Origin: Opitutia bacterium
Lineage (GTDB): Bacteria > Verrucomicrobiota > Verrucomicrobiia > Opitutales > T3Sed10-336
Direction: 5' to 3'
Assembly (NCBI GenBank): GCA_050506795.1
Contig: JBJHCF010000004.1
Location: 32,001 to 96,000 of the forward strand
Length of the DNA stretch: 64,000 nt
Shown: positions 16,790-36,798 of the stretch, in pieces
Layout of the letters: every line of letters begins with the position of its first letter
How positions within the stretch are numbered: position 1 is the stretch's first letter
Translations under genes and position numbers: made by a program
The notes under the pieces: generated by a model
Databases searched by the model: none
Seen by the model: the letters and a program-made list of their open reading frames with translations, nothing else
What the model was told of the DNA's origin: nothing

Positions 16790-16882
16790 GGAGAGATGGC
16801 TGAGTGGCCGAAAGCAGTGGTTTGCTAAACCGCCGTACCGCCAAAAGCGGTACCGAGGGTTCGAATCCCTCTCTCTCCGCCA
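16790..16882 (+). tRNA. tRNA-Ser(GCT)
   Basis: GGAGAGA/TCTCTCC acceptor stem, anticodon arm gtggt-ttGCTaa-accgc, long variable arm, GGTTCGAATCC T-loop, encoded CCA. Confidence 0.97.
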
Positions 16883-16884
16883 TT
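16857..16884 (+). repeat. attL core, gggttcgaatccctctctctccgccatt
   Basis: Identical to 48885-48912. Confidence 0.95.
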
Positions 16885-16941
16885 TGTGATGGGCTTTTGC
16901 CTTAGATTTGCCAAAATGGAATGGCAAATCTGAGAAAAACC

Positions 16942-18282
16942 ATGGCAAAACCTAAGTTCAAGATCACCCCGTTCACCAACCCCAGCGGCCAGCGCGTTTA
17001 CCGTCTGTCTGGCACGCTCAACGGCAAGAGGATCCGTGAGAATTATCCGACTCGCCCCGAAGCCGTTGCAAAGCGTCAGGAATATGAGGTCGAGTGGCTC
17101 AACGACCATCCCGAGGGCCGCACGATCTGGACCACCTTGACTCCTGAGGAGAATCGCGACGCGGTCACCGCAATGAATTCCCTCAAGATGAATGGCGCTC
17201 CCTACTCGCTCAGCTTCGCCGTCAGTTACTGCCTGGAGAACTACCGGCCGCCGGAACAGGAGAAATCGATCAGCGAGGCAGCGGACGAGTATGTCAAGAA
17301 GCGGGACCGCGACTGCGTTCGCGAATTCATCTCCCAGGCGCAATTTCGCTCGATCAAATCCGAGATGCTTTGGCTCAAGAGCAAGTTCGGGAGCACGCCG
17401 GTTTCGGCCATCACCGTGGAAAAATTCCGCGACTACCTCGAAACTCCGCGCAACCGGCCGCGCAGCCGTCTCGTGAAAAAGGAGGTCACCGCTCCCAAGA
17501 CCTGGAACAACCGTCGGGGCCTTCTCTCGACCTTCTGTCTGTTCTGCGTCGAGCGCGGTTACCTCGCGCAAAATACGATCGCGAAGGTTCCCCAATTCAA
17601 GATCAACGGTCGCAAGTCCATGGCGAAAACGCTAACCGTCGATCAGGTCAACGAGCTGATGGAATACCTCGAAGCCTATGACGGGTCACCTATCCGCCGC
17701 CTCAAGGAGCCCCAGCCCGCCGGCTTCCTGGTTCCCTTCTTTGCTCTCGCTCTCTTCGCCGGCATTCGTCCGGATGCGCTCTACGGCGAAATGGGTAAGC
17801 TCCAGCCGGAAGACATCGACCTGAACATGGGCGTTGTCCGGGTTCGGCCCGAAGTCTCGAAGACCAACGAAATGCGCGTGGTGGCCATTCAGCCAAATCT
17901 TCGGCTGTGGTTGGAGAAATATCCGGTGGAAAAGTTTCCGCTTCTCCCGGGAAAGAACATCGTTCGCATCCTCTCCGAGGTCCGCCAGGAACACAAGATC
18001 GGCCATGACGTTCTCCGGCACACTTACATTTCGATGCTGGTCGGCGCTTTTCGTTCGGTCGGCGACGCCGCGCTCCAAGCAGGCAATTCCGAGGCGGTGA
18101 TTCGCAAGCACTACCTCGATTTGAAGTCGGTGGAGGAGGCCGATCAGTTTTGGCAGATCATTCCTGCCGGGACTGAGCTTCCCAAGAACTTCAAGAAAAA
18201 GGACGGTCGATACGCCTTTTTCAACAAACCGGAGAAGGACTCCGAAGGCGCAGAAGAAGCTGAAGAGCTGGCGTCGGTCTAG
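16942..18282 (+). CDS. tyrosine recombinase/integrase
   Basis: FAGIRP (R), SKT (K), HDVLRH, AGNS, KHY (Y); alternative ATG at 16921. Confidence 0.93.
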   Translation: MAKPKFKITPFTNPSGQRVYRLSGTLNGKRIRENYPTRPEAVAKRQEYEVEWLNDHPEGRTIWTTLTPEENRDAVTAMNSLKMNGAPYSLSFAVSYCLENYRPPEQEKSISEAADEYVKKRDRDCVREFISQAQFRSIKSEMLWLKSKFGSTPVSAITVEKFRDYLETPRNRPRSRLVKKEVTAPKTWNNRRGLLSTFCLFCVERGYLAQNTIAKVPQFKINGRKSMAKTLTVDQVNELMEYLEAYDGSPIRRLKEPQPAGFLVPFFALALFAGIRPDALYGEMGKLQPEDIDLNMGVVRVRPEVSKTNEMRVVAIQPNLRLWLEKYPVEKFPLLPGKNIVRILSEVRQEHKIGHDVLRHTYISMLVGAFRSVGDAALQAGNSEAVIRKHYLDLKSVEEADQFWQIIPAGTELPKNFKKKDGRYAFFNKPEKDSEGAEEAEELASV

Positions 18283-21844: not shown

Positions 21845-22762
21845 TCAGGTGACGCTGACCCGGCGGGCGCAAACCTTGGAGGTTACCTTGATGTCTTCGG
21901 TCCAATCCACCGCGAGGATGTCCGAGCGGTTGCTTTCGGCGCGGTAGATCCGGACGATGTCCACTCCCCCGCCGCGGGTGCGGAAGGTTTTCATGAACGA
22001 GGGATCGTAGACGCTCGGCGCTGCCTGGGCGATGAACAGGTAAAGCTCCGAGCCGATGATGTTGACGGCGTTCTTCGCCTTGCCGGGCTTTGCCGTGTCG
22101 GCGGACATGACGCCGACGCGGATGTCCAGGTTCGGGTTGAGCAGAAGGCTCGCGAACTGGGTCAGGGTGACGCCGACGCTGGCCGCTCCCGGGAAGCGTT
22201 TCACCACGGCCGGGTTGTGCCGGATGCGGCGCCACGCCGGAAGACCGATCGCCATGCGATTGGGCATCTGGCCGGTCTGGGTGGCCAGCTCTTCGATGAG
22301 TTGGTCGAGCTCGGCGACCGGGTCGTTGGTGTTGCTCGCGCCGTCCCATTGCCCCATGCCGCTGACGGCGGGAACGCTGGAAGCGGCGATCGAAAAGACC
22401 TTCGCTTCGTGGGCGACCTTGGCCCCGGAAACGAGGGTCCGGGTCTTGGCCTTTTCGAGGCCGAGCGGGTCGCCTTCTCCCGCTTGCCGGCGCTCGTGGT
22501 CGTCAATGGCGATTTCGAGCGCGTTCGGGTTGCAGTTGAAGAACGGATCCTCGGCTTCGAACTCCAGCCGGCGGGCGGGACCGCCGATGGCGCGGCGCGT
22601 ATCCGGGTTCTGGAACGCGTTTTTGTCGGAGAAGTCCTTGTATTGCCCGTTGGCGGACTGGACAACGACTTCCGGCGCGAGGAAGCTGGCGAGGGACGGC
22701 GAGCCGTCCTGCGAGAGCCCTCGGGCGTAGTTGGTGAGGGTGATGTTGAATTTAGAGGACAT
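21845..22762 (-). CDS. major capsid protein (HK97 fold inferred)
   Basis: 305 aa; follows protease and decoration genes; LTNYARG...LAPEV, WD...DPV, MPNRMAI patterns. Confidence 0.8.
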   Translation of the reverse strand: MSSKFNITLTNYARGLSQDGSPSLASFLAPEVVVQSANGQYKDFSDKNAFQNPDTRRAIGGPARRLEFEAEDPFFNCNPNALEIAIDDHERRQAGEGDPLGLEKAKTRTLVSGAKVAHEAKVFSIAASSVPAVSGMGQWDGASNTNDPVAELDQLIEELATQTGQMPNRMAIGLPAWRRIRHNPAVVKRFPGAASVGVTLTQFASLLLNPNLDIRVGVMSADTAKPGKAKNAVNIIGSELYLFIAQAAPSVYDPSFMKTFRTRGGGVDIVRIYRAESNRSDILAVDWTEDIKVTSKVCARRVSVT

Positions 22763-22814
22763 AGCTGTGGAATTTCAGATTTGAGATCGGAGATTGGAAA
22801 CGAGTGGTTGCGGG

Positions 22815-23213
22815 TTACGGTGCGATGAGGACGGCCTCGATCTTCTCTTCGGCGACACCGCCCTCCAGCGCCATGGCAACGCGTGGCGTGGTCGGTGCGT
22901 CGCTGCTGGCGACGAAGGCAACTTCGTCGTTGTCTTCGAAAAGACCGAGAAGCGTGCCGGTCTGGGTGACCGGGCCGAAGAGCTTCACGCGGACGGTTCC
23001 GGAGAAGCCTCCCCGCGCCGGGGCGACGGTGACTTGCTCACCGGCTTTCCCGCCTTTGAGAAGGACGCCAAACGGCGTCTGCTCGGCGTTGGTCAGAAGA
23101 GTGATCTCGTTCTGACCGGTGACGATGACTGGATAGCCCTCCTTGCCGGTAAGATCGATGGCTGCCTTGAATGGCAGGATAGCGTTTTCGCGAACAATGC
23201 CTACTTGGCTCAT
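22815..23213 (-). CDS. capsid decoration/cement protein (DUF2190-like)
   Basis: 132 aa, beta-rich, between protease and capsid; PFGVL, VAMALEGG. Confidence 0.65.
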   Translation of the reverse strand: MSQVGIVRENAILPFKAAIDLTGKEGYPVIVTGQNEITLLTNAEQTPFGVLLKGGKAGEQVTVAPARGGFSGTVRVKLFGPVTQTGTLLGLFEDNDEVAFVASSDAPTTPRVAMALEGGVAEEKIEAVLIAP

Positions 23214-23231
23214 AGCTGTGGATTCCTTTCT

Positions 23232-24350
23232 TTAGTTGAACAGTTCCGGGGCCTCGGCCTGGGCCTTGGCGAAGATGGTGTCGAAGGTGGCGGCCGGGTG
23301 AGCGGCGCGGAGATCGTTCAGCTTTTTGAGCTGAAGGGCCTCCTGGTTCTGGACGGGGCCGGTGCCCGCATCGCGTGCGGTGACGATGGTCGCGAAGGCG
23401 GGATTGACCGGAAGGGCCTCCAGGGCCTGCACGGCTTTCCCTTCATCGCGGATGAGAGCGTCGACCCAAAAGGTCTTGGCGTTTTCGTCCTTTGGCGCGA
23501 CGCGGCCGGCCTGAATGGCGGCATCGACGCGGGCCTCGGCTTTGGCTCGGATGGCGTTGTCACGCTCGGTTTCGAGAGCGGTCAGGCGTTCCTTCGCCGC
23601 CGCGAGATCGGCGCTGCTGGATTGCAGCGCGGTAACTTTGGCTTTCACCTGGGCGATGATGTCGGCTTCCTCCGTGGCGGAGGCCTCGACCAGCCCGAGT
23701 GTCACCAGATTCTTCAGTAGTTCTTTCATGGTTACGTGGTCTTCAGTTGCGGGTTGTGGATCTTGTCCCTTGGCGAACAAGGGCTGGATTCGTTTGAAGG
23801 CGGCGCGGTTTACAAGTCCGCCCATGTTGGTTTCGCTCCCGATGACGCGGCCTGCGGCATCGAGGAGAAAAGTCGGAGAAAAGCGCCGAAAGGCGCGGTC
23901 CTGGATGGCTTTCTTGCCGACGCCGGACCATTCGATCTTGGCGCGAACGCCGCCGGTCTTCGGGTCGTCGCCTCCCCAGAAGATTTTGACCGGCCATGCC
24001 GCGGCCTCGCGGTCGTCGTGATTGAAGTCGAAGAAGGGCTTGTCCTCGGCCCCGGCTGCGGCCAGCGCAAGCTGGCGGGTTAGCCAATCGGAGAGCGCGG
24101 TTGCCGTGGCCTGGCTGACCTCCACGTCGAGTTCGACCGGTTTGCCGGCGCGGGAGGCGCGAATGCGGTGACGGCCGGGCGGCATGTATTGGATCTCTTC
24201 GGGAAGTTGGTCCTCGGCCGGCTCTGGAAGAGCGACGGAGAATGCAGCTTTTACGGGCTCGCCCTTGGGCGGCGCGTAGGCCATGACGCCGTCGGGGCCT
24301 TCGGTCCATCCGGGATTGGAGGTTGGGGAGTTGTGATCGTGTGCGGTCAT
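23232..24350 (-). CDS. Mu gpI-like prohead protease with C-terminal scaffold
   Basis: MPPG, FDFNHD, AAAW, IEWS, FRRFSPTF, GLVNRAAF; helical C-terminus with VDAAIQAGRVAP. Confidence 0.85.
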   Translation of the reverse strand: MTAHDHNSPTSNPGWTEGPDGVMAYAPPKGEPVKAAFSVALPEPAEDQLPEEIQYMPPGRHRIRASRAGKPVELDVEVSQATATALSDWLTRQLALAAAGAEDKPFFDFNHDDREAAAWPVKIFWGGDDPKTGGVRAKIEWSGVGKKAIQDRAFRRFSPTFLLDAAGRVIGSETNMGGLVNRAAFKRIQPLFAKGQDPQPATEDHVTMKELLKNLVTLGLVEASATEEADIIAQVKAKVTALQSSSADLAAAKERLTALETERDNAIRAKAEARVDAAIQAGRVAPKDENAKTFWVDALIRDEGKAVQALEALPVNPAFATIVTARDAGTGPVQNQEALQLKKLNDLRAAHPAATFDTIFAKAQAEAPELFN

Positions 24351-24640
24351 TTCGGTTTCCAGATCAGAGCGATAGAACAGCGGCAGTTGGGATGAACGGG
24401 GGGAAAGCGTGTCCAATCCTTGCCGTAAAGAGTGCCGTGGAGAGCGCCGCATACAGAGCAAGTGCCTTCATCGAAGTCAGTGATCCAGACGTAGGTCTGG
24501 TTTGGATCGAGCGGAGGCGGCGGCTCGCCGTCGGGATAGGTGTAGAACCATCCGTCAGGGCCTTTAACCCAACCGGGATGGCGTTCCGATTCCCGAAGCG
24601 GTTCTTCCGCGTGTAGTGCTTGTTTGGCGACGTCATTCAT
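24347..24640 (-). CDS. minimal Mu gpF/SPP1 gp7-like head protein
   Basis: CSVCGALHG and PPVHPNCRC motifs in only 97 aa; overlaps both neighbours by 4 nt. Confidence 0.7.
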   Translation of the reverse strand: MNDVAKQALHAEEPLRESERHPGWVKGPDGWFYTYPDGEPPPPLDPNQTYVWITDFDEGTCSVCGALHGTLYGKDWTRFPPVHPNCRCSIALIWKPK

Positions 24641-26019
24641 TCAGTCCCGGGTCGAGGGTGAAGGGATTTTGGATTTTCGATTGCGGATTGCGGATTTGGA
24701 TTCGCGGGTGGGTTGTAGAGCACGTCCTCTTTGCCTGGAGCGGGAACCTTGTGGCGTTCGTAGAGCCACTGGCGGGAGACCGGCAGGGCCATATCGACGA
24801 AGAGTAGCTTGTCGCGCTCGACGAGCTCCTTGTCACGGGTAAGGCGCGGGATCTCGACTTCGATGTAGGGAAGCTCTTCGAGGTCGCCGTAGTTGAGCTG
24901 GATGATGGCGGGAATGAGCTGGTGATTGAGAACCTCGGCGACGTGGTTGGCGTAGCCTTCAAAGAGGTCGAGTTCGACTTCGCGGTGAACGCGGCCAAGA
25001 GCTTGCGTGCCTCCGCTTGCGGGAGTGTCGGACGTGAGAGTCTGGCCGAGGAAAAGAAGGTCGCATGCCTTGTCGGCGATGATCATCAGGCGCTCGTTCG
25101 GATCAGTGGGACCGGCTACGCCCGGAACGATGCCGTTGGACATGATGTTGATGTCGGTCCCTTTCGGGAACGCTCCCCAGGCGGATGCTCCCATCTGCTG
25201 GAGCATGTTGGCGATCAGTTGAACCTGACTGTCGGGGATGTGCTCGTCGTAGGTGGCGTAGCGGAGCGGGATCCCGAAAAGCTCCGTTTTCGAAAGCATC
25301 CACTCATAGCCAAGGAGGCGACCGAGCCAGAGCGGAGCGAGGGCGCGAAGCTGGGCGCAGGCGCCGGGGTTCGGAATGGTCGGCGGAAAGACCGAGAGAA
25401 GGAACTTGTTCGGGTAGCGGTCAAACGAGTGTGCTTCGTGGCGGTTTCGCTCCGGGTATAGCATCAGCCGGCCGGCGTGGGGATTGTGCATCGAGATGTC
25501 GAAGCCGAGGCAGGAGTAAGGAACGCGGCGCGTGCCGGTCGGGAGGATGAGTCGGTCACGAATTGCCCAATCAACCTCCAGCACGGTGACGCCCACGGCG
25601 ATGGAATCGACGAGGTTGCTGATCGTTTGGGCGAGGTTGATCTTGTTTTCGGCGAGATTCGTCGCGCCGCCGTGGAGAGCGGTTTCGATGAGGGAGGCGC
25701 GTTCGATGGCGCTGGCGGTTGGCTCCTTCCCCTTCGGACTCCATGGCTGAATGTTCCATGGGAGCTTGGTGACACTGACCTTGATCTTGTTGAGGTTCGA
25801 CCGGAGGCGCGGCCAGGTGTCGAACATGATCGAGAAAAGCTCCTGCTGACGCTCAAGGTCTCCCTGCAGTCCGGCGTCGAGCATGGCGCCCATGGTGTCG
25901 GGGTCGATGGAGCGACCCGAGAATATGTGACGGAAATCGAGGCCGGAAGGCTGGATCACCGGCTTGAGGAGCTTCCGTGGAGCGGCGTCTTTGGCTTTCG
26001 TGAGAAACGGGATTCTCAT
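24637..26019 (-). CDS. portal protein, DUF935 (Mu gp29-like)
   Basis: ELFGIPLRYATY, LFLGQTLTS, GTQALGRVH, LNHQLIPAIIQLNY. Confidence 0.9.
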   Translation of the reverse strand: MRIPFLTKAKDAAPRKLLKPVIQPSGLDFRHIFSGRSIDPDTMGAMLDAGLQGDLERQQELFSIMFDTWPRLRSNLNKIKVSVTKLPWNIQPWSPKGKEPTASAIERASLIETALHGGATNLAENKINLAQTISNLVDSIAVGVTVLEVDWAIRDRLILPTGTRRVPYSCLGFDISMHNPHAGRLMLYPERNRHEAHSFDRYPNKFLLSVFPPTIPNPGACAQLRALAPLWLGRLLGYEWMLSKTELFGIPLRYATYDEHIPDSQVQLIANMLQQMGASAWGAFPKGTDINIMSNGIVPGVAGPTDPNERLMIIADKACDLLFLGQTLTSDTPASGGTQALGRVHREVELDLFEGYANHVAEVLNHQLIPAIIQLNYGDLEELPYIEVEIPRLTRDKELVERDKLLFVDMALPVSRQWLYERHKVPAPGKEDVLYNPPANPNPQSAIENPKSLHPRPGTE

Positions 26020-27392
26020 CAGTTACGCCCTCCAAAGGTTGCGCCCGCCGTGTAGATCGAGCGGAAGCGGGTTGGCGTCGGGACGAACCGCGAGGGATTG
26101 CCGCCGATCTGGAAGGCGTTCGGTTTTGGCGCGGATCCGGTTCCGCCGTGGCGGGCTGCGGCATGCAGGGCCAACGCGAGGGCGGTGGAGCGGTCGGCGT
26201 GGCCGTCGGCCGTTCGTGCGGCGGTGTATCGAATGTTTCCGGACGGGGAAACGATCCGTTGCAGGCTGGCCAGATCGTCGCGCAAGCGTGCGTCGAGAGG
26301 GATTTTGATCGTGCCTTCCTGGAAGTGTTTCTTGGCGCGAATGAACAGCTCGCGTTTGCTCTCCGCAGAAAAGGTAACGGGGTCGAGCTTGTAGTCGCCG
26401 AGGGTATCGGCCAGGTGCTCGGAAATCGGTCCGCCGATACCCGTCGCGTCGATGGCGGAATAGGTGGCGCGTTGCAGGCGCGGCGTGAGAGCCGCTTCCT
26501 GCTCCGGGAAAGGGACGCCGTCGAGGATTAGGATTTCGCGGGTCCAGAACGTGCCGTTGACCGCTTCGACCGTCCAGCAAACGGTGAGGTCGCGCTTGCG
26601 GCCGATGTCGACGCCGACGAAAACTGGGTTTCCGGTGAGAGCGTTCCAATCGTGGGAAGCAGCGGAATCCTCGGCAGCAGTGATGAGATCGCGGGGGAAG
26701 ACCTGGGCGCTCTCTGCCATGAACTGGCACTCGAACTCCTGCGACCATCCATCAGGATCGTTCAAGTTGGCGCGAAGCTCGTCGATGTTGACGGCGAGTC
26801 CGGCCTCTGCCGCATCGTAGATGGTGGTTTTGTGACGGGAGAAGTCGGCTCCGTTTTCCCACAGGTCGAAGTATTTGTTGTTCATCCCGGCCGGCGTGGA
26901 GATCACGCGCAGCTTGAGCCGACCGCGAAGGGGATTGGTGATGATCGGATAAACCGCCCTCCAGATGTCCTCGGGCTTTTCGTGGAAGGCGAACTCGTCC
27001 AGGACGAGATTGCCGGAGTAGCCACGGGCGGTGGAGGGATTGGCCGGGAGCGCGATTAGACGAGCACCATTGGGAAAGCGGCACTGGCTGGCTTTCGTTT
27101 CGGGGCGGTATTCCTGGCCGGTTTCGAAGGAGATCGCATCGCAGAAGACGGCGGCGGCCTGGTGGACCTTGGCCATAAATTCGAGAGCCTGCCGTTCACC
27201 GGCGGAGAGGATCACCCAGTCGCCACCCGTTTCGAGTGCATCGGCGACGACCTCGAACGCGGTCGCGAGCGATCCGCCGATTTGCCGGGATTTGAGCCAG
27301 ATCTTGAAGCGGGTCCGGTCGTTGACCCAGCTGCGCTGATACGGGAGCAGGAGGTCGAAGGGAGATACCTTCAATTTCGGACGTTTGCTCAC
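26019..27392 (-). CDS. terminase large subunit (Mu gp28-like)
   Basis: LLPYQ, KSRQIG, TARGYSG, LDEFAF, VISTP, QEFECQF, GVDIGR, IDATGIG, GHAD. Confidence 0.93.
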   Translation of the reverse strand: MSKRPKLKVSPFDLLLPYQRSWVNDRTRFKIWLKSRQIGGSLATAFEVVADALETGGDWVILSAGERQALEFMAKVHQAAAVFCDAISFETGQEYRPETKASQCRFPNGARLIALPANPSTARGYSGNLVLDEFAFHEKPEDIWRAVYPIITNPLRGRLKLRVISTPAGMNNKYFDLWENGADFSRHKTTIYDAAEAGLAVNIDELRANLNDPDGWSQEFECQFMAESAQVFPRDLITAAEDSAASHDWNALTGNPVFVGVDIGRKRDLTVCWTVEAVNGTFWTREILILDGVPFPEQEAALTPRLQRATYSAIDATGIGGPISEHLADTLGDYKLDPVTFSAESKRELFIRAKKHFQEGTIKIPLDARLRDDLASLQRIVSPSGNIRYTAARTADGHADRSTALALALHAAARHGGTGSAPKPNAFQIGGNPSRFVPTPTRFRSIYTAGATFGGRN

Positions 27393-27889
27393 TCCTTAGC
27401 TCCTACTGCTCCAAGTCGGTCGCGCCAGCTTTGGAGAATTTCACGCTGGTCGGCCTGGTTGATGTTAACCTCGGTCTTGACGAGGGCCGTCGGGCGGTCG
27501 GCGTAGACGTCCGGCTTGTGGCTCTTGAGGAGGAAGATCAAGCAGGCGTCGGAAAACTTGCGCTTGTATCCACAAAGGTTGCCTTTGATGTCAAAGACCG
27601 GCTCTTCCCAGCCGTCGACCGCACGGCGATGGAGCTCCTGTTCGGCGGATTCGATCCGCTGGACGTTCTTAACGCGGTCGCGTTCAAGTTGGGCGGCCTG
27701 GAGGCGCGGCGTCAGTTCGGGGCGACGGGTGAGGTTCCTGTAGAAGTTGCGCGGATTTAAGCCCTCGCGCTCAATAGCTTCGTAGGTGGGTTGGCCGTCG
27801 AGGATGTTTGCGAGGACGCGATCAAAAAGCGCTTCCGAGAATTTCGAAAGCCTGCCGGCTCGTTTTGCTACTGCCGTTTGCCTTGCCAC
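27389..27889 (-). CDS. terminase small subunit
   Basis: N-terminal HTH, ELHRRAVDGWEEPVF...KFSDACLIFLLK; GTGA overlap with terL. Confidence 0.8.
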   Translation of the reverse strand: MARQTAVAKRAGRLSKFSEALFDRVLANILDGQPTYEAIEREGLNPRNFYRNLTRRPELTPRLQAAQLERDRVKNVQRIESAEQELHRRAVDGWEEPVFDIKGNLCGYKRKFSDACLIFLLKSHKPDVYADRPTALVKTEVNINQADQREILQSWRDRLGAVGAKE

Positions 27890-28029
27890 GAATTAATGGC
27901 ATGACATACGGGGGGCTAGGACAACTTGGGAAGTTGTGTAAAAGTTGCTGGATTTAACTGTATTTGTGCACGGTCGCGAAAACCGGAAAGTTCGTGGCCA
28001 TGTTCAGGAGAAAAGGTAGGTTGTGTGTG

Positions 28030-28506
28030 ATGTCTGAAAAATCGAGCAGGTGTTGTGATGAGGCGTCCAAAGGTCCCTTCGATGAAGTTCTGGGCTGTCC
28101 TCGTTGTGGCCGCAAGGGTCGCCCGGTCTCCGAATTGACGGTAAAGCAGCAGGTAGCACCGGAACATTTGGAGGCGGCAAGCGGCGAAGGGAATCAGTTC
28201 TGCGGGACTCCGGATTGCGCGGTGGTGTATTTTGTCGCTGGGGGGCAGGTCTTCGAGCAGAAGGATCTACGGCAGAAAGTTGGGTTGAAGGACCGTTCAG
28301 ATCCGTCCCCGGTTTGCTACTGCTTTGGGTTTACAAGGAGGATGGTGGAAGATGAGGTTCGGTCGACTGGCAGGAGCACGATTCCGGACCGCATTGCCCG
28401 CGAAGTGAAGGCAGGAAACTGTGCGTGTGAGGCGCGGAATCCACAGGGGAGTTGTTGCCTTGGGAATGTGACGGCGGCGGTGAAAGAGGCGGAACGTGGG
28501 GGTTGA
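28030..28506 (+). CDS. Cys-rich Zn/[2Fe-2S] metallochaperone (CopZ N-terminal domain-like)
   Basis: CPRCG, FCGTPDCAVVYF, VCYCF, CACEARNPQGSCCLGNV. Confidence 0.85.
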   Translation: MSEKSSRCCDEASKGPFDEVLGCPRCGRKGRPVSELTVKQQVAPEHLEAASGEGNQFCGTPDCAVVYFVAGGQVFEQKDLRQKVGLKDRSDPSPVCYCFGFTRRMVEDEVRSTGRSTIPDRIAREVKAGNCACEARNPQGSCCLGNVTAAVKEAERGG

Positions 28507-28509: not shown

Positions 28510-30490
28510 TTGTTGGACCCTCGCGGGGCCATAAACGCCGCGACGTAAAAACGCGTGTAGAGGCGCGGAGCGCCGCTGGCAACGACGAGCGGGCGTTAGC
28601 CCGCGAGGAGGCGCAGCGAGGCCGTTGTCGGCCGAGCGGAGGCCGCGGGGCGAGGCCGCGGAACTGGGGGCGCGGAGCGCCTAGGCGTTCTATTGGCGCG
28701 GCGAAGCCGCTGGTGATTGCAGGCGCGATAGCGCCGTGCGAAGCTGCGAAGCAGCGTAGCGAAGGGCGCTGCCAGGGGCCGCCCCAGGCGCTGGCTGAGC
28801 CAGCGCGTCAGCGCGAGGCGAAACAGCGCGGGGCCACCGCGCCGGGAGGCGGGGGGAAGGCGCCCCTTCCATTCACATTAAGGGGCGCCGCCTGGCGTCG
28901 AGGAGATCAACGGTAGCGATAGCGAGTGAAACGGGGGAGGTTCGCGACGGCGAGGGTCGTGTGGCCGTTCCGCCGACCAGGGCGGGGGCTGGGGGATATA
29001 CTGATTTCAGGCCCCGAGCGAAGCGAGAGCGAATGCGTGGGCCGTGCAACGACGAGTCTTCGAGGAGGCGCAGGGAGCCTTAGCGACCGAAGTTCGCCCG
29101 GGTTAGGCGGGCGAAACTGGGGGCCGGTCCGGATAGCGGCTGGTGAGGGCTCTGCCACAGACGGGTCCCGGGTGGATGGGGTGAGCCCTCGCTGCCTGCG
29201 CCGGGGCGGCCTAGGCCCTACTCTACTGGAGCGAAGCGACAACTGACTCGAGCCCCCGGAGCGGAGCCGGAGCAGACGCCCAGTCCCGCAAGCGCACATG
29301 ATCATCATATGTCAAAAATCCGCCGGAAGAAGGAATACCTGGACTGATGGAGGAAAAGTGAACACGTCAGGATCTTCGGCATATGATCCTCATGTGCGGT
29401 CCCGCTTTTTGGGACGAACTGGAGGGAAGCAGGAAGCATGACACCGGCTTGCCGGTGGCGCGATGCCTGCGAGGGCGTCTGTTCCGGCGGAGCGGAGGGG
29501 GCTTTCCGGGGTTGGGTGTGAGTGAGCTTGCGAACGAACTGGTAGAAGTTTCGAGCGGGAGCGAGCGTCAGCCTTCCCGGCGATTGAGGGTCCAAAGCGG
29601 TCGGCAGCGCGTCGCCGGGGCGAGGCGGATGGGTTGGCGGAGGGCGTTTCCCGGCGTGGCGCTGCTGGTGACTTTCAGCGCCGGAAGGAGCGGTCTGAGG
29701 CGGAGTCTTCGGAGCCTCTGTCCGCGACTCGGCGCCAGAGGGGCGTTCGATTGCAACCGGGGCGAGCAGTCGCTGGCGGATGGTGACCAGAGCGTAACGG
29801 AGCGTCCGGCGTAGCGCAGGGTGGAGCGTAGGGGTGCAGTAGTCCGGTTGCCCGAAGGGTCGCGTAACACGAGGGGACGCGGTGAGCGAAGCCTGTCGCC
29901 GTTAGGCGTCTGGCGAAGCAGCGGCCAATCGTGTTACGCGCCGGACTTCTGCATCCCGAAGCGGAACCCGGAGCGGAGTCGGAAAGCGGCGTGGAGCGAC
30001 GGGAGCGATCGGCCAGCGTCTGCGGTTGGATTGTCCCGAACCGAGCGACCGGAACAGTCGCTCCGGATGCGAGGTATCGAGCAGAAGGAGTGTCTGTGGA
30101 GGGAGCGGCCGGATTACCCGTCAGGGTTGGCGAGGGCGTTCGATTGGAACGGGATCGAGCAGTCTCGGGCCCGCTGCGAGGGAGACCGGGCGAGCGATTA
30201 GCCGCCCAGGTTCGACTAAGCGAAGGGGCCGAGTCTGCGGTTGGATTGTCCGAGGACGAGCGACCGGAACAGTCGCTCTGGAGTGAGGAACGAATGGAGG
30301 AGCGTCTGTGGAGGGAGCGGGATTGCGCCCGTCAGGGGTGGGACGTTGACTTGCAACCGAATCGAGTGGTCGCTGAAGGAAGGGGCGGCGGCGCTAAGGG
30401 CCGTTGCTGCCTTTGGCAGCTGATGGCCCGTGCGGCGACGAACCGACCGGAAGCGTCCACGGTTGGATTACCCGGGGCCGTTCGCTCCGT
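28510..30490 (+). other. ~2-kb non-coding, highly foldable single-strand tract
   Basis: No credible ORF; dense hairpins with GNA/GNNA loops, nested long stems, three repeated modules. Confidence 0.75.
30018..30337 (+). repeat. imperfect ~105-bp direct repeat (30018-30126 and 30233-30337)
   Basis: Shared blocks gtctgcggttggattgtcc, cgagcgaccggaacagtcgctc, gtctgtggagggagcgg, cccgtcaggg. Confidence 0.9.
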
Positions 30491-31289: not shown

Positions 31290-31385
31290 TGCGAACTGGA
31301 GATTTGAGATTCGAGATTTTGGATTTGAGAAATGCCCTCTCTCGGAGGGTGGAATTGGAAAGTTCCCTGGCCAGTCTCGCGACAG

Positions 31386-31469
31386 TGACACTCCCCTAAA
31401 GGGGAGGTGTCATGTGTCGCGGTGACGGGTTTTGCGATGTGTCGCAATAGGTGTCGCGCAAAGTGTCGC
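31386..31469. repeat. hairpin plus four GTGTCGC direct repeats, putative replication origin
   Basis: tgacactcccc-taaa-ggggaggtgtca; GTGTCGC at 31414, 31439, 31451, 31463. Confidence 0.6.
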
Positions 31470-31501
31470 GGAGAGTCTGGACGGAATTGATCGACCATGG
31501 C

Positions 31502-32647
31502 TTATGCGACGATTTCTTCGCCTTTTTTGGTGAGTTTGTAGCCGTCTTTGCCGGTTCGAAAATAGCCCTCTGTCTTTCCTTTGAGCAAAACGCGCTGCAG
31601 GGAGCGCTTTGAACCGGCGTCGGGACCGCCGAGAGCATCATGGATTTCGCCTATTTTTTTTGCTCCCTCGTGGATCGCGCCCGCGACTTCCGCGAGGCTA
31701 AAGTTGGCGTTTGATCGCTTGCCTTCGACGTCGTCTTTCCATGCCTGGAGGTCGAATGTCGGGTCGATGCCGTAGAGCATCGTCTCTTCGGAGAGCTTCA
31801 AACCGACGGGATCGAAAGGCTTCGCGTCGTTCGATTTTCCGCAGGAAACAACGATGCGGCTCGGGTCGTCCGGATCGGCGGGGGCGATGTTGATCTGCGA
31901 GCGGCAACCCGAATAAAGCGCCTTCGAGCCGAGACCGAAGTTGGATTTATCCCACCCCACCGCCTGGGCGATGTTCTGCCGGCCGGTGCGCCCGTGATGA
32001 ACGATTACGATGGCTGTATCCTGATTGGAACGACGGCAGACCTTGGTGATTTCGCGGAGTGTGTGCCGGATGTCGGCGTCCTTGTTGATGTCGCCGATAT
32101 TCACCTCGCCGAAAGGATCGATGTAGATGACATCGGGTTTGATCAATTCGAGGGTGTCGAGCCACTTCTTTTTGATGTCGTCAGCGCCAAGACAGATAAA
32201 GGCGTCGTCGATCTCGCGAACGACGTGAAAGAACGTGTGTGTTCCGACCAGGCGTTTCTGCTCGGGCGTAAGGCCGCGAGTCATCCGTTGGTAATCGTGT
32301 TGAAGTCGGTGGATGCTGTTCTCGGTGCCGATTAGAAGGTGGCGTAGCGGTTTTTGATAGGTGGACAGGCCGGCGACGGGCCAGCCGAGGATTTGGGAAA
32401 TGGCAATCTGCATCGACAGTCGGCTTTTCCCAGTGCCGCCCTGGCCGACCATGTTCGTCTGCTGTCCGAGGGCAATGACGCCGTCGCCGAGGACGTTTAC
32501 CTTCGGCGGGAGCTTGATCGTGTCGAGCTGATCTCCGGTGAAAACCGTGTAGGGCTTCGGCGGAGGGTTGGTCGAGTTCTCGGCGGCGGCGAATTGGGGA
32601 TCCTCGGTGGCATCCCAGATTTCTCGTGGTGTTTCTGGCTCGTTCAT
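31502..32647 (-). CDS. AAA_25 / RepA-type (RecA-fold) helicase
   Basis: Walker A GQGGTGKS, IGTEN, Walker B IYIDP, IVHH; possible C-terminal wHTH. Confidence 0.82.
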   Translation of the reverse strand: MNEPETPREIWDATEDPQFAAAENSTNPPPKPYTVFTGDQLDTIKLPPKVNVLGDGVIALGQQTNMVGQGGTGKSRLSMQIAISQILGWPVAGLSTYQKPLRHLLIGTENSIHRLQHDYQRMTRGLTPEQKRLVGTHTFFHVVREIDDAFICLGADDIKKKWLDTLELIKPDVIYIDPFGEVNIGDINKDADIRHTLREITKVCRRSNQDTAIVIVHHGRTGRQNIAQAVGWDKSNFGLGSKALYSGCRSQINIAPADPDDPSRIVVSCGKSNDAKPFDPVGLKLSEETMLYGIDPTFDLQAWKDDVEGKRSNANFSLAEVAGAIHEGAKKIGEIHDALGGPDAGSKRSLQRVLLKGKTEGYFRTGKDGYKLTKKGEEIVA

Positions 32648-33516
32648 GCGTGGGAAATGGGTTCGATGTTGAAATGAAGGATGTCCTGGCGAACTCCGGT
32701 ATCGCGTCGACCGCCGGGCAGACGGACCAGTTTGGCAGGATCCCATAGCGTGGGATCGGCCCCGAGAAAGACTGCGTGACGGAAGAAGCGGAGCTTCCCG
32801 TATTCGGATAGTCCCTCCACGAGGAACCAGCCGTGCAGGGATTTGCCTCCGGACCAAACGACGAGGATCAGGGGCCTCTGCTTGGAATGAAGCGAGGAAA
32901 GGATCGCTGCCTGTTCCCGAAGCGTTCCCCGGTCGAACTCGATAACTTGATACCGACGGCTGCGGGTCGCGTTATCGTGACAGCGCGGAGATGGTTTGCC
33001 GGACTGATTGATTCCGGTGGGTGCCGTCATCGCGTTGGCCACGATGAACTGCATGTTCGATTCGAGGCCGCGCCATTTTTCTCGCGGTTGTGTCTGGGCA
33101 CTGCGGGTGTCGAGCGCGAGGCACAATAGCGCGTCTGTTGGATAGAGGCGGTCAATGACTTCTTCGCTGGTCACATCGACTGGTGTGGACCCGAAAAGAA
33201 TAGGGCCAGCCTTCCGCCGATCCCAGGCATCCTGATTGAAAGGAGGCCACGGCAAGGCGGGTTTGGTCGGTCGCGGTAAAACCGGGCCTCCTGTTTCAAA
33301 CGCCCGCTCGACAGCGCGTGCGATCTCGGGCCGGAAGTCGCGGTCGCCCCATCGAGTGGCGACCGCTTCCAGAACGAGGCGGATCTTTTCCGGCGAGGCG
33401 TAGTGGCGAGCATTTCTTGCGACGGTGAAGAACCAAAGGTTTCGATTGCCGGGAGCGGGAGTCTGCTCAAGGAGTTCGGCTAGGGAGCGTGGTAAAGGAT
33501 CAAGTGTGGCCATCAT
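32644..33516 (-). CDS. primase, archaeo-eukaryotic/RepB'-like
   Basis: VIEFD, SGGKSLHGWF, LVRLPG; ATGA-coupled to polymerase and helicase genes. Confidence 0.72.
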   Translation of the reverse strand: MMATLDPLPRSLAELLEQTPAPGNRNLWFFTVARNARHYASPEKIRLVLEAVATRWGDRDFRPEIARAVERAFETGGPVLPRPTKPALPWPPFNQDAWDRRKAGPILFGSTPVDVTSEEVIDRLYPTDALLCLALDTRSAQTQPREKWRGLESNMQFIVANAMTAPTGINQSGKPSPRCHDNATRSRRYQVIEFDRGTLREQAAILSSLHSKQRPLILVVWSGGKSLHGWFLVEGLSEYGKLRFFRHAVFLGADPTLWDPAKLVRLPGGRRDTGVRQDILHFNIEPISHA

Positions 33517-35348
33517 TTGCAGTAGGTTTGGGTTTCGATGCCTTCGGCAGCCACGGGCAAGCCGGGCATCCATGCTGGTGTCTGGGCGAGCAGGTTGGTC
33601 ACCTGCTCGACACCGATGCCGGAGTCTTCCGGCACTTCGCAGATCACTTCGTCGTGAACTGTCCAAAGGATGCGAATACCCGCGTCATGAATTCGGAGCA
33701 GGCCTTCGGCGAAAACATCCCGTGCGGTAGCCTGGACGAGGTTTTCGGTCAGCTTCCCGCCATACCAATGAAGACGGGGGCCGCCTCGTTCGGTTGCGGC
33801 CGTCAGTCCGTCCTCGTCGGCTACGTCGAAGTAGCGGATAACGCGATGCGACGGCAGGCGCATGTGAAACGTGTGACCAGCGTGGCGGCGCATCGATTCC
33901 TCCAGCGAGGCCCAGAAAGCAACCGTTGCAGGGTTGGCTTTGCGGAAGTCGTTCACCGTCGCCCGGGCCTCGGAATGGGAGATTTCGAGGCCGTAGATCT
34001 TGGCGAGGTTCTTGAAGGTCGCGGCGCCCGCGCCGTAGCCCAAGCCGATGACGCGGCATTTGGCGAGGAGGTAGAGACGGGGGTTTTCCTCCTTGAGCTT
34101 GCCGCCCGTCCACCCCATCGAAACCTCCGCGTGCGCCTGGTAGATAGGCAGGCCGTCGGCAATCTTTTCAAGAAGGTCGCGATCTCCGACCATCCACGCG
34201 AGCACTCGCGGTTCGATCTGCGAGAGGTCGGCGGTGATCAGCTTGTGCCCCGGGCGAGCACGAAGGCAGCGGCGTGGGTCGACGCCGTGAAGCGGCTCGC
34301 GGTTGAAGTTTTGGAAGTTCAATCCCGCGTCTCCGGCCCAGCGGCCGGTGGCGATGGCTCCGAAGTATTTCAGGCTGAAAGGGAGCGTGCTATCGGGGCG
34401 ACACCGGTCGCGCATTGTTTCGAGGAGCCGAAGCATCCGGTTCGACTTTCTCCAGTTGCGGATGTGGCCAATCCATGGAAAGCGTTCGCCGTAGCGATGC
34501 TCCCATTCTTCGCAGGCCGGATCGTCCTCGCTCGTCGAGGGTGGAGGCGGAAGATTGTGCCGCCCACATTCGATGGCGAGAGCCTTCGTGCTGGTCGGCT
34601 TTTCGCGGCCAGCCCACGGGAGAGCCCGTTCTGAATCCGCGCATTGTTGGGCGAGAATCGCAATGCCGGCGTCGACGGCTTTGCGGTCGAGATAAACGCC
34701 ATGCTCGCCCTGCTCCACTGTGAGACGCGAAAGACGCCGTTCCTGAGCGGGCCAGTGAAGCGAATACCCAAGCCATAGATCGCATGCGAGCTTGGCGTCT
34801 TCGAGCGCGTAGCCGAGAAGCTGGTCGTCCTGGAGCAAAGTGCGCGATTGGAGCCAATCGGTTCCCTTCATTGCTTTGCGAATGGCCTTGTTTGGCTTCC
34901 GTCCCAGAAGGTGCTGAGCAGCACCCTCCAGATTACGCGGGGCCTGGAGATAGACCGCGAGAGCGGCCGTGTCGTGCCATTCCCGCGGGGCGACATCAGC
35001 CGGGGCGATTCCGAGCTCCTGGAGCCGGGAGAAGACGGCCCGGTCGAAGCGGCTGTTGTGCGACACCCAAATGCACCCGGAGAATTCGTGCCATGGGCAT
35101 TCCTTTGGGTGACCAACGAATTGACCGTGAGGTCCCCAAAAAGAGACCAGGTAGCAATCGAATTTCTTGTCGGCGACGTAGCGGTCGACGCCAACGGCCT
35201 TCAGGTCGTAGCCCTTGCAATAGAAGGTCTCGGTGTCGAAACCGTAGACCCTATTGTCGGTAGCTGTAACCATATTCGGACCAGAGGTCCGTGATGGCAG
35301 ACTCAATTCCATCTGCGGCGAGGGTGTGAAGTTGGTGGAAGCGTTCAT
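33513..35348 (-). CDS. phage-type family A DNA polymerase with 3'-5' exonuclease
   Basis: ExoI FDTET, HNSRFD, YALED; TGRWAG, motif A DLSQIEPR, motif B AK...LGYG, motif C VHDE. Confidence 0.93.
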   Translation of the reverse strand: MNASTNFTPSPQMELSLPSRTSGPNMVTATDNRVYGFDTETFYCKGYDLKAVGVDRYVADKKFDCYLVSFWGPHGQFVGHPKECPWHEFSGCIWVSHNSRFDRAVFSRLQELGIAPADVAPREWHDTAALAVYLQAPRNLEGAAQHLLGRKPNKAIRKAMKGTDWLQSRTLLQDDQLLGYALEDAKLACDLWLGYSLHWPAQERRLSRLTVEQGEHGVYLDRKAVDAGIAILAQQCADSERALPWAGREKPTSTKALAIECGRHNLPPPPSTSEDDPACEEWEHRYGERFPWIGHIRNWRKSNRMLRLLETMRDRCRPDSTLPFSLKYFGAIATGRWAGDAGLNFQNFNREPLHGVDPRRCLRARPGHKLITADLSQIEPRVLAWMVGDRDLLEKIADGLPIYQAHAEVSMGWTGGKLKEENPRLYLLAKCRVIGLGYGAGAATFKNLAKIYGLEISHSEARATVNDFRKANPATVAFWASLEESMRRHAGHTFHMRLPSHRVIRYFDVADEDGLTAATERGGPRLHWYGGKLTENLVQATARDVFAEGLLRIHDAGIRILWTVHDEVICEVPEDSGIGVEQVTNLLAQTPAWMPGLPVAAEGIETQTYCK

Positions 35349-35354
35349 CGCAGG

Positions 35355-35579
35355 TTACCTTTTCCGGGGGTTGACGGTGCAATTTTCCTCCAGCGCCTGC
35401 CGGACGTTCGCCACGTCGAAGCGAACGAGGTGTCCGATTTTGACGTAAGGAATTTTCCTTTGCGCCTGCATCTGGCGAACCCAACGCAAGGAGGGTCTGC
35501 TGGTTTCGTCGAAAAGGGCTTCGAGGAGCCCGTGAGCGTCTACGAGTTTGGTCGATGGAATGTTGGTCGAAGTATTCAT
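35355..35579 (-). CDS. HTH_17/excisionase-like protein
   Basis: SLRWVR...KIPYVKIGHLVRFD. Confidence 0.75.
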   Translation of the reverse strand: MNTSTNIPSTKLVDAHGLLEALFDETSRPSLRWVRQMQAQRKIPYVKIGHLVRFDVANVRQALEENCTVNPRKR

Positions 35580-35696
35580 GATCTGGTGTCATTTATGAGA
35601 AAGTGATGAGTGGTTGGCGGTGGTCCCGATCACCCCCCGGCGTATGCCGGAGGATGACGGGCGTTCACCTATAGTCGGCGATACAACCAGCGGGCG

Positions 35697-35984
35697 TTAC
35701 AGCCGCAGGAAGTCGTCCGAATGAACGAGGATCCAGAAGCCGGGGCGGTTGCGTTCGGAGAGGCAAACGACCGGCGTTTTCTTTTCGGGAGTCGCGAGTT
35801 TCTTCGCCTCGTCCCAGGTGCGAATCGCGGCGAAGCGTTCACGCTGCTTACACTCGATGAAGAGCGTCGGGTGAAGCGTGTCGGAGCGGGTGAGCTTCGA
35901 GTTGCCTCCCGAGAGCGCGTTCCGCTCGGTCTTGAAGAACCTGGCGACGCGGCGCTCGAATGCCTTCCAGCACTTATCGGCCAT
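35697..35984 (-). CDS. small PD-(D/E)XK nuclease (Holliday-junction resolvase-like)
   Basis: KAFERRVA, SD, IECK; start MADKCW. Confidence 0.65.
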   Translation of the reverse strand: MADKCWKAFERRVARFFKTERNALSGGNSKLTRSDTLHPTLFIECKQRERFAAIRTWDEAKKLATPEKKTPVVCLSERNRPGFWILVHSDDFLRL

Positions 35985-36798
35985 TGGGTGCCTCCCTCCC
36001 GTGCGAGCGTGGATCGTATCCCTTCTGGTGGCGCCACATGGCGCATGCCATTTTGAATACTTCCCATTCAGCGAGGAGCTGCCGGGGCCCGTAGCTGACA
36101 ACCTCGACGCGGCCCGGCTCCGTTGTGCTGATGAACACGTTCGCGCCGTAGAGGCGTCCGAGGTTTTCTTCGCCCCAGTAAGTCGCGCCGTAGGCGGCGA
36201 TCTGCATTGCCTGCCCGTCGTAGGCGGTCACGGCGAGGCCGGGTTTGGTTTTGCGCGTCTTGAAGTCGATCACGCCAATCCCGTTGGTGCCGTAGCGGCA
36301 GGCGACATCCATTGTTCCGGCGAAGCCTTCCCTTTGGTTGACGAGGCAGAGCTCGCGCTCGACGAACTGGATCTGTTTGGCTTGCTGCCACGCGATCACC
36401 GGGCTGGTGTAGACTTCCAGATCCGGCGGGACCGGGACGCCGTCGAAGTGCTTTTCGAGAGCGTCATGGATCCGACTGCCGAGATCGGCGGCCTGCTCGA
36501 CCTGGGCGAAGGCTTCCTCGATGATGCGGTCGGCGAGATAGTCGTCGCTTTCGCCCTCGGTGCGGTTGAGCCGCATCGAGGCCAACGCGACCTGCTTCAT
36601 CTTCCACTTGTCGAGTTGTGGCTTGGCAAAAATCCCGAGGATCGAAGTGACGCTCGGATAGAGCCCGAGGCGTTTCGCGTCGCGGATCGTCGTCGGCCGG
36701 AGCCCATCACCGCCCGCCTTGGGCAGGCGGTGACAGGGCGTTCCGTCGGCTTTATACCAGTGCGAGGACTGGACTTGGTCTTTCTTGAGAACGGCCAT
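35974..36798 (-). CDS. PD-(D/E)XK exonuclease (phage recombination type)
   Basis: PSVTSIL, GSRIHDALE, FAGTMD, IDFKT, QIAAY. Confidence 0.8.
   Translation of the reverse strand: MAVLKKDQVQSSHWYKADGTPCHRLPKAGGDGLRPTTIRDAKRLGLYPSVTSILGIFAKPQLDKWKMKQVALASMRLNRTEGESDDYLADRIIEEAFAQVEQAADLGSRIHDALEKHFDGVPVPPDLEVYTSPVIAWQQAKQIQFVERELCLVNQREGFAGTMDVACRYGTNGIGVIDFKTRKTKPGLAVTAYDGQAMQIAAYGATYWGEENLGRLYGANVFISTTEPGRVEVVSYGPRQLLAEWEVFKMACAMWRHQKGYDPRSHGREAPNGR

What the first reader, a model, noticed from the sequence alone, without database searches (positions are those of the whole stretch)
28510..30490. ~2-kb tract built to fold as single-stranded DNA
Seen: + strand hairpins closed by c(GNA)g or c(GNNA)g loops: ggcgc-GGA-gcgcc (28562, 28669), gcgggc-GTTA-gcccgc (28589), gcggc-GAA-gccgc (28698), ggcgc-GATA-gcgcc (28722), gctgc-GAA-gcagc (28743), gcgc-GTCA-gcgc (28803), ccc-GAA-ggg (29851), cgcc-GTTA-ggcg (29897). 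G-T wobbles also favour the + strand. Known: GNA triloops and GNNA loops are exceptionally stable in DNA, whereas RNA prefers GNRA/UNCG; such motifs mark single-strand origins and primosome sites, usually a few hundred nt long. Inference: an unusually large ssDNA-functional element (priming signals, ssDNA promoters or protection) sits between the replisome and terminase. A large ncRNA is the alternative.
Basis: partly seen in the sequence, partly recalled or inferred. Interest (0 to 1): 0.82.

Follow-up and report, generated by a model that had tools for sequence, protein, structure and literature searches.

The report
Folded single-strand DNA module with dif mimic
A tailless phage-like element carries a 2-kb gene-free stretch that folds on one DNA strand only and hides, inside a long hairpin, a look-alike of the site where the host's XerC/XerD enzymes untangle chromosomes, so it probably helps the element finish copying itself and recombine with its own copies.

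Summary
The hairpins are real and strand-specific: 10 c(GNA/GNNA)g stems on +, 0 on -, 0.9 expected, the top 2-kb window of the genome. The tract lies in a 32-kb tRNA-Ser-integrated element of an Opitutales bacterium with Mu-like head genes and no tail gene found. Relatives keep a homologous non-coding tract upstream of terS whatever replication genes they carry. Its loops are DNA-type (GNA, GNYA, tandem G.A enriched; GNRA and UNCG not), so it is ssDNA, not RNA. Among 40 distinct arm pairs none has a perfect overlap, overlaps co-vary between arms, and most cannot pair with host dif. The module also occurs in primase/recombinase/Rhs elements and alone. It lies just 5' of an iteron origin-like cluster, where a single-strand origin would sit. 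Best reading: a single-strand origin plus a self-specific Xer site. Folding and dif mimicry are shown; priming and recombination are inferred.

The parts
28518..30485 (+). Whole ssDNA-folding module (non-coding)
   Evidence: Collinear block in a relative, 96% and 94% identical in its two long pieces against 88-91% in flanking head genes; homologous tracts upstream of terS in relatives
28547..28559 (+). Conserved A-run/CGCG motif at the terS-proximal edge; cargo genes insert beside it; candidate packaging or terS control site (untested)
   Evidence: Motif m1 in most relatives; cargo 27976-28518 absent from run X2
28562..28815 (+). Array of GNA/GNYA-capped mini-hairpins
   Evidence: 7 of the 10 hairpins
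28826..28895 (+). Anchor domain: two hairpins and an invariant G-rich segment; best-conserved part of the family
   Evidence: 39-sequence alignment, 24 invariant columns; 3 of 11 pairs with two-sided changes; used as search pattern
29251..29503 (+). Long outer stem enclosing the dif-like fold-back
   Evidence: Inverted repeat I1; DNA fold z -5.65
29289..29317 (+). dif-like arm 1 (XerC half 29289-29299, 7-nt overlap, XerD half 29307-29317)
   Evidence: 14.1 bits on a matrix from 25 Opitutales dif sites
29374..29402 (-). dif-like arm 2, inverted; pairs with arm 1 across a 56-nt branched loop
   Evidence: Inverted repeat I2; -3.6 bits in this copy, up to 32 bits in relatives
29740..30480 (+). About three copies of a ~210-nt unit: GATTG(C/G)AAC-type motif, bulged stems, G/T-rich linkers
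   Evidence: Repeat families D1-D6; motif 3 on + against 0.0 in shuffles; stem GCAGTCG/CGTCTGC about 250 nt apart also in relatives
30473..30489 (+). End hairpin followed by T/A run
   Evidence: not above chance: 1 found, 3.2 expected
31378..31470 (.). Palindrome plus short iterons just past the helicase stop codon: probable double-strand origin
   Evidence: z -5 to -6.6
27964..28506 (+). CopZ-type zinc-binding cargo gene inserted between terS and the module
   Evidence: PF18423 E 1.6e-17; skipped in X2
27389..27889 (-). Terminase small subunit
   Evidence: phrog_4044
21845..27392 (-). terL, Mu-type portal, Mu F fragment, Mu-like protease, 132-aa gene, major capsid
31502..36798 (-). AAA_25 helicase, primase, family A DNA polymerase, excisionase, RusA-like resolvase, exonuclease
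16921..18282 (+). Tyrosine integrase
   Evidence: phrog_1 E 7.7e-24
16857..16884 (+). attL, 3' end of tRNA-Ser
   Evidence: 28-bp exact repeat
48885..48912 (+). attR

Best explanation
The tract is a DNA device that works only when the + strand is single-stranded during replication of the excised element. (1) Shown: it folds on one strand with DNA-specific caps. (2) Shown: its central stem pairs two inverted look-alikes of the host dif into one XerC/XerD-type site whose overlap is cleanly paired on one side and bulged elsewhere. (3) Inferred: a fork leaving the origin at about 31.4 kb rightwards round the circle displaces the + strand and exposes the tract last; the mini-hairpin arrays and repeated units resist SSB and nucleases and give the primase its entry site, as a single-strand origin does. 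(4) Inferred: host XerC/XerD bind the folded site and exchange one strand pair with a sister copy of the same element, not with chromosomal dif; replication or the element's RusA-like enzyme resolves the junction, which yields multimers for the terminase next door or cuts unit circles out of ssDNA multimers. My odds: ssDNA fold 0.9; Xer-type binding 0.8 for the family and 0.65 for this more degenerate copy; priming role 0.55; self-recombination 0.35.
For: Loop census in 36 terS-linked tracts (43,853 nt, related, so not independent): cGNAg 144 vs 30.8 +/- 7.0 shuffled (other strand 17 vs 16.2), cGNYAg 33 vs 10.3, GNA loop on tandem G.A 50 vs 1.5 (other strand 0) with all four middle bases, but cGNRAg 24 vs 25.6 and cUNCGg 7 vs 4.8. 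Only GNA triloops form DNA mini-hairpins, the RNA form is far weaker, and such hairpins sit in G4, ST-1/alpha3 and ssiA priming sites and bind SSB poorly (PMC13037366, sections 2.3 and 4 read). Host dif found at G000:C39:41771, where KOPS polarity flips; the same pattern is in 96 of 151 Opitutales genomes, almost always once, reversed control 1 hit; XerD over cut-off and a XerC-like gene present. Arms carry the lineage's own letters (C half CGCACAA, D half TTATG.C). Of 58 distinct motif loci with enough sequence, 46 have the pair, 4 have it with the loop on the other side, 8 lack it. 0 of 40 distinct pairs have a perfect overlap; 34 of 40 have 3 or more Watson-Crick pairs on one side (37 with a G.T); 7 of 20 pairs show two-sided changes in a 15-sequence subgroup. 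The flipped L180 copy keeps the same 6-nt/7-nt overlaps as L003. Geometry equals CTX attP1/attP2 (PMC3089051). Iteron or inverted-repeat clusters follow the helicase stop in all 5 elements examined, 3' of the module on the folded strand. Replication genes differ (PolA + AAA_25, AAA_25 + SF2, D5 + Pif1) while module and terL co-diverge (rho 0.80, 0 of 500 permutations, 26 loci).
Against: No binding, priming or recombination was measured. No HUH initiator or other proven source of long-lived ssDNA was found; fork direction is unknown, and a leftward or bidirectional fork would not expose this strand for long. No crossover product inside an overlap was seen; mosaic relatives swap the whole stem domain (by eye). 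This copy's arm 2 scores -3.6 bits and both arms are changed at the base next to the overlap. Three real modules (L093, L116, L145) lack the pair, so it is not indispensable. Standard folding z-scores are weak over most of the tract. At 1.3-2 kb the tract is far longer than the 168-340 nt origins cited in PMC4595007, and priming alone does not explain the fixed place beside terS.
Confidence: 0.5

Rival explanations
1. CTX-type second attachment site: the folded site lets the element's ssDNA form integrate at chromosomal dif through host XerC.
For: Same two-arm geometry and bulged overlap as CTX attP(+); 2 of 19 overlap types could pair with some Opitutales dif on the XerC side; L050 matches its host's dif on the XerD side.
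Against: 17 of 19 overlap types fail the XerC-side rule, including this one; 6 of 7 host-element pairs mismatch by eye; the elements whose ends I traced have their own integrase at a tRNA; no module beside 30 chromosomal dif loci.
Confidence: 0.1
2. The tract serves packaging or entry: a structured end-region next to the packaging start that is opened by helicases or nucleases and protects or recircularises the genome, with Xer binding as a scaffold rather than a recombinase.
For: Always upstream of terS in the capsid-forming class and co-diverges with terL; mini-hairpins resist nucleases (PMC13037366); 15 of 28 viral contigs end within 1.4 kb upstream of terS.
Against: The same module occurs in primase/recombinase/Rhs elements and alone, with no terminase detected nearby; contig ends are scattered, as expected from sequencing drop-out in GC hairpins; 0 of 57 more distant phages with related terL have it.
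Confidence: 0.15
3. The module is itself a non-autonomous ssDNA mobile unit or cassette-recombination site (attC-like) moved by Xer-type enzymes, and hitch-hikes in several elements.
For: Four partial copies elsewhere in this genome, tandem and partial copies in L158, L180, L229, a gene-free copy beside tRNA-Arg in L249; cargo genes change at its edges.
Against: In the capsid-forming class it is fixed in place and inherited with terL; partial copies start at varied points, not at the overlap.
Confidence: 0.15
4. A large non-coding RNA (GOLLD/ROOL/pRNA-like) beside the packaging genes.
For: Size, covariation and location near terminase; RNA runs hold the stretch.
Against: No GNRA or UNCG excess on either strand; no Rfam match; dif arms make sense only as DNA; in run X2 the stretch is part of an 18.2-kb contig of flat depth that also spans the head genes, so it reflects DNA in the library.
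Confidence: 0.04
5. An Frpo/ssoA-type RNA-polymerase promoter on ssDNA that fires toward terS.
For: This copy has TGAACA-17-TATGAT at 29359-29387 with the -10 in arm 2; the XerD half reads like a -10 in 24 of 37 modules; the folded strand is the template strand of terS.
Against: Only 1 of 37 modules reaches 9 of 12 with a usable -35; the -7 T position varies with the overlap; one site is what shuffles give (0.6).
Confidence: 0.06

Closest known systems
CTX-phage attP(+) (CTX-type IMEX) of Vibrio cholerae
   Same: Two inverted dif-like sites a short distance apart fold on ssDNA into one Xer site; XerD halves toward the loop; overlaps of unequal, non-canonical length; outer XerD half degenerate (PMC3089051 text and tables; PMC5357621 and PMC9226527 passages).
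   Different: Sits in a dsDNA capsid-forming element with its own tRNA-targeting integrase; overlap mostly cannot pair with host dif and differs from element to element; the paired side is XerC-side in some and XerD-side in others; embedded in 1-2 kb of further conserved structure.
Single-strand origins and ssi signals (G4/alpha3 primase origin, RSF1010 ssiA, ssoA/ssoU, ICEBs1 sso1)
   Same: Strand-specific fold, GNA/GTTA mini-hairpins, position 5' of a probable double-strand origin.
   Different: Five to ten times longer than the 168-340 nt origins cited in PMC4595007; no HUH initiator found; carries a dif mimic; no sequence match tested to any described origin.
Capsid-forming PICIs (cf-PICI)
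   Same: Integrase, primase/helicase, terS, terL, portal, protease, capsid, no tail gene found (10.1101/2022.09.08.507074 passages).
   Different: Mu-type portal and protease; no HNH or head-tail connector detected; some carry PolA; no such ssDNA module appears in the passages I read.
Integron attC sites and pdif modules
   Same: Folded ssDNA recombination site with bulged bases (attC, recalled); paired dif-like sites near exchangeable cargo (pdif; search listing only).
   Different: Arms copy the host dif, not attC boxes; the two arms are 23-71 nt apart and self-complementary, not flanking a gene.

Membership tests
CTX-type IMEX attP(+) | Two inverted dif-like sites that pair on ssDNA | tested here: met
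   46 of 58 motif loci, 4 more flipped
CTX-type IMEX attP(+) | Overlap paired on one side only | tested here: met
   0 of 40 perfect; 34 of 40 with 3 or more pairs on one side
CTX-type IMEX attP(+) | XerC-side overlap can pair with host dif | tested here: not met
   2 of 19 types; this copy GAT/GAG against host TAT fails
CTX-type IMEX attP(+) | No own integrase; integrated at dif | tested here: not met
   Integrase and tRNA-Ser att repeats; none beside 30 dif loci
CTX-type IMEX attP(+) | Binding and single-strand exchange by host XerC/XerD | not testable with these tools
   Needs biochemistry; host genes present
Single-strand origin (sso/ssi) | Strand-specific ssDNA fold | tested here: met
Single-strand origin (sso/ssi) | Lies 5' of the double-strand origin on the displaced strand | tested here: inconclusive
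   Origin-like cluster lies 3' of it; origin identity and fork direction unproven
Single-strand origin (sso/ssi) | Element makes ssDNA through an HUH initiator or relaxase | tested here: not met
   No such family among the ORFs scanned; several ORFs have no family
Single-strand origin (sso/ssi) | Primes complementary-strand synthesis | not testable with these tools
   Needs an assay
Frpo/ssoA-type ssDNA promoter | Conserved -35 and -10 at 16-18 nt within the stem | tested here: not met
   1 of 37
Large structured ncRNA | Rfam match or RNA-type loops (GNRA, UNCG) | tested here: not met
Large structured ncRNA | Discrete abundant transcript | tested here: inconclusive
   Only assembled contigs with DNA-like cover
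cf-PICI | Head and packaging genes, no tail genes | tested here: met
   a 436-aa ORF after the capsid gene has only weak phage look-alikes
cf-PICI | HNH nuclease and head-tail connectors | tested here: not met
   Not detected in Pfam or PHROGs scans

The most novel reading that the evidence does not exclude
Verrucomicrobial satellites and primase-type mobile elements use host XerC/XerD on a folded single-stranded site with a private overlap to join or cut their own replicating genomes: a rolling-circle-like cycle with no HUH initiator, in which a 1-2 kb ssDNA 'machine' couples second-strand priming, multimer formation and hand-over to the terminase.
Probability: 0.25. Interest if true: 0.88.

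Novelty: new variant of a known kind. Interest (0 to 1): 0.72.

Why it matters
Folded Xer sites are known as the integration trick of ssDNA filamentous phages. Here one is kept, with compensating changes, in dsDNA capsid-forming elements that integrate by their own enzyme, and its overlap avoids the host dif. That points to a use of Xer other than chromosomal integration or dsDNA dimer resolution. The family is also a natural library of kilobase-scale structured DNA with a clear DNA-versus-RNA signature, which offers a simple way to find functional ssDNA in genomes. A cultured host with two complete elements exists in the public record (L043, L046), so the idea can be tested.

Tried and rejected
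Rfam on the window and four relatives: only tRNA. blastn of the tract in its own genome, 11 genomes of the family, phage and plasmid collections: nothing. Tract ORFs: no Pfam/PHROG family, no conservation. RNA evidence: three RNA runs laid were contigs with flat, DNA-like cover; they show neither expression nor its absence. Idea that modules with a CGCCCAA half track a host dif variant: not supported (1 of 251 genomes; not above control). Proteobacterial primase/XerC/toxin elements (5 plasmid records): no anchor and no inverted pair found with my simple scans, nor in L227. Distant terL relatives: 0 of 57 have the anchor; two of these (L279, L314) were sliced wrongly and count for nothing; four loci were too short to test; L055 has ordinary genes there. 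sigma-70 promoter model rejected. The count '24 of 32' for the distal stem includes false matches in the anchor; about 17 of 32 hold by eye. The palindrome score was miscentred and was redone; the regex found the palindrome beside the helicase stop in 8-9 of 32 loci, others have different iterons. Likeness of the XerD half to RS_B of ssoA and of the anchor to a PriA assembly consensus is recalled only; one search found no RS_B text. Atlas searches on two unknown genes gave no function.

Full report
Observation. The quoted hairpins are in the sequence. Counting stems of 4 or more pairs closed by C-G on a G..A loop gives 10 on + and 0 on -, against 0.93 +/- 0.94 in 300 dinucleotide shuffles; the tract is the top 2-kb window of the 4.9-Mb genome. 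Eight of the ten lie in 28562-28851. Folding energies are exceptional only in places; PMC13037366 states that standard parameters do not account for mini-hairpin stability (passages).

Setting. A 28-bp repeat of the tRNA-Ser 3' end at 16857-16884 and 48885-48912 bounds a 32-kb element. It has an integrase, a Mu-type head module (capsid, protease, portal, terL, terS), AAA_25 helicase, primase, PolA, RusA-like and exonuclease genes, and metal-efflux cargo; no tail family was found among the ORFs scanned. Most named genomes with a close terL are Opitutales/Opitutae.

Conservation. terL searches gave 28 viral and 24 genome loci. Where the contig reaches far enough most have a non-coding tract of about 1.3-1.9 kb upstream of terS, hairpins on the strand antisense to terS; L022, L051 and L053 do not, and L041 and L059 have insertions before it. 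A close relative in run X2 is 96% identical over 28518-29779 but 88-91% over the head genes, and lacks the copZ-type gene. Replication genes vary among relatives, while tract core and terL identities correlate (rho 0.80, 26 loci, 0 of 500 permutations; kin are not independent). More distant phages with related terL lack the module (0 of 57, two mis-sliced).

DNA, not RNA. In 36 terS-linked tracts GNA triloops, GNYA tetraloops and GNA loops on tandem G.A pairs are strongly enriched on one strand, with every middle base used, while GNRA and UNCG loops are at chance level on both strands; eight modules without terS show the same pattern. Only GNA among 64 triloops forms the DNA mini-hairpin and the RNA form melts about 37 degrees lower (PMC13037366 section 2.3). 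Rfam has no match. The RNA runs that hold the stretch gave contigs of flat depth spanning many genes and cannot show a transcript.

The dif mimic. The inverted repeat 29293-29321/29370-29398 is conserved, and each arm reads as XerC half, 5-8 nt overlap, XerD half. The host dif is at G000:C39:41771; KOPS polarity flips there and the pattern is in 96 of 151 Opitutales genomes. A matrix from 25 such sites scores this copy's arms 14.1 and -3.6 bits and relatives' pairs up to 52 bits: this copy is a weak member. An independent search with the anchor motif gave 29 viral and 75 metagenome loci and 4 of 401 genomes of the phylum; pooled with the earlier loci, 155 loci and 72 distinct. Of 58 distinct loci with 420 nt or more downstream, 46 have the pair, 4 have it with the loop on the XerC side, and 8 lack it: three real modules and five that I took for chance matches, of which I inspected two. 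Among 40 distinct pairs the overlap differs between elements but agrees between the two arms; none is perfectly complementary; 34 have at least three clean pairs on one side. One second module in L180, outside that count, does have a perfect overlap. In genome G140 the halves are almost exact host dif halves but with 7-nt and 5-nt overlaps, so the site is canonical only when folded. This is the CTX attP1/attP2 layout (PMC3089051, parts 1 and 2 of 3 read).

Not aimed at host dif. Using the pairing rule for CTX integration, 2 of 19 overlap types fit any Opitutales dif on the XerC side; by eye 1 of 7 host-element pairs fits, on the XerD side. Elements whose ends I traced sit at tRNA genes with their own integrase, and none of 30 chromosomal dif loci has a module beside it. 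A folded site always fits a dsDNA copy of its own arm 1 on its paired side, which is why I favour self-recombination. No crossover product was found.

Other homes. The module also occurs with no terS detected nearby, beside CHC2/Toprim primase, HTH, tyrosine recombinase and Rhs cargo, as partial copies on four other contigs of this genome, and alone beside a tRNA-Arg gene. Proteobacterial elements of the primase type showed no such module in five records. So the module is not merely a packaging signal.

Origin geometry. A palindrome with short iterons follows the helicase stop codon here (31378-31470) and repeat clusters follow it in the four relatives examined. That they are origins is inference from place and form. 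The module lies 5' of them on the folded strand, where a single-strand origin would be exposed last by a one-way fork. GNA/GTTA mini-hairpins occur at G4, alpha3/ST-1 and ssiA priming sites and bind SSB poorly (PMC13037366 section 4). No HUH initiator was found, and fork direction is unknown.

Comparison and novelty. It works like a CTX-type folded attP joined to a single-strand origin, but fails membership of CTX-type IMEX (own integrase, tRNA site, incompatible overlap) and is unproven as an sso. Nine literature searches listed no paper on such a module, on a folded Xer site in a capsid-forming satellite, or on these Opitutales elements; the library lacks most subscription papers, I saw only listings for most hits, and I read no supplements, where intergenic motif catalogues could hold it. 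Papers seen: PMC3089051 (parts 1-2), PMC13037366 (passages, sections 2.3 and 4), PMC9226527, PMC5357621, PMC4595007 and 10.1101/2022.09.08.507074 (passages only). attC, RS_B and GOLLD/ROOL/pRNA comparisons are recalled. Unchecked notes of this scan report similar inverted dif pairs in other integrase-bearing elements, which suggests the theme is wider; I did not test them.

Verdict. A real, conserved ssDNA structure family with a fold-back mimic of the host dif. New variant of known kinds; interest 0.72. The mechanism beyond folding and mimicry is inferred (0.5).

Noticed in passing
window 27964-28506: CopZ-type zinc-binding cargo gene inserted between terS and the module; a relative has 30 nt there instead. 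Other relatives have other insertions at the same edge (L027, L029, L059).
   Followed up: partly
window 31378-31470: Palindrome with short iterons right after the helicase stop; counterparts with different iteron letters in L044, L052, L057, L050, L167: probable origin.
   Followed up: partly
G000:C23:79193-79293, C29:65546-65671, C16:1-96, C18:3530-3600 (L202-L205): Four more partial modules with the fold-back dif pair in the same genome, one beside a tyrosine-recombinase fragment; C16 and C18 copies are nearly identical in the loop.
   Followed up: partly
L249:6900-7630 (G650:C40): A gene-free 750-nt copy of the module (anchor half, dif pair, end hairpin) next to tRNA-Arg, flanked by host genes.
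   Followed up: no
L150, L170, L180, L184: dif pair in flipped order (XerD halves at the stem base); L180 keeps the same overlaps as L003 and has a second, normally ordered module with a perfect overlap 1.2 kb on.
   Followed up: partly
L229, L230, L163: Genes whose N-termini look like REP-associated (Y1) transposases, and GACCCC-type repeats, lie next to modules; identification by eye, recalled, not scanned. Such enzymes act on ssDNA.
   Followed up: no
L222 (NZ_CP072857.1): An 11.3-kb circular record made of primase, XerC-like recombinase, HTH, SymE and toxin-immunity genes: may be the excised form of the primase-type element; no module found in it.
   Followed up: no
L003-L030: 15 of 28 viral contigs end within 1.4 kb upstream of terS, many just past the G-rich anchor hairpin: likely sequencing drop-out, though genome ends are not excluded.
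   Followed up: no
window 24347-26019: Portal (460 aa) and a Mu F fragment (97 aa) are separate ORFs here; relatives have one ORF of about 541-554 aa.
   Followed up: no
window 18322-21830: After the capsid gene: a small ORF, a 436-aa ORF with weak phage look-alikes (possible fibre or spike), a DUF6694 cargo gene and small membrane proteins, one conserved in relatives.
   Followed up: partly
window 40146-48684: Heavy-metal cargo inside attL-attR: outer-membrane efflux protein, AcrB-family pump, heavy-metal P-type ATPase.
   Followed up: no
L059, about 2300-2850 nt upstream of terS: Array of short tandem GACCG(A/G)AGGTCGTAGCA-type hairpin repeats inserted before the module.
   Followed up: no
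L093, L116, L145: Modules with the anchor but without a detectable dif pair.
   Followed up: no
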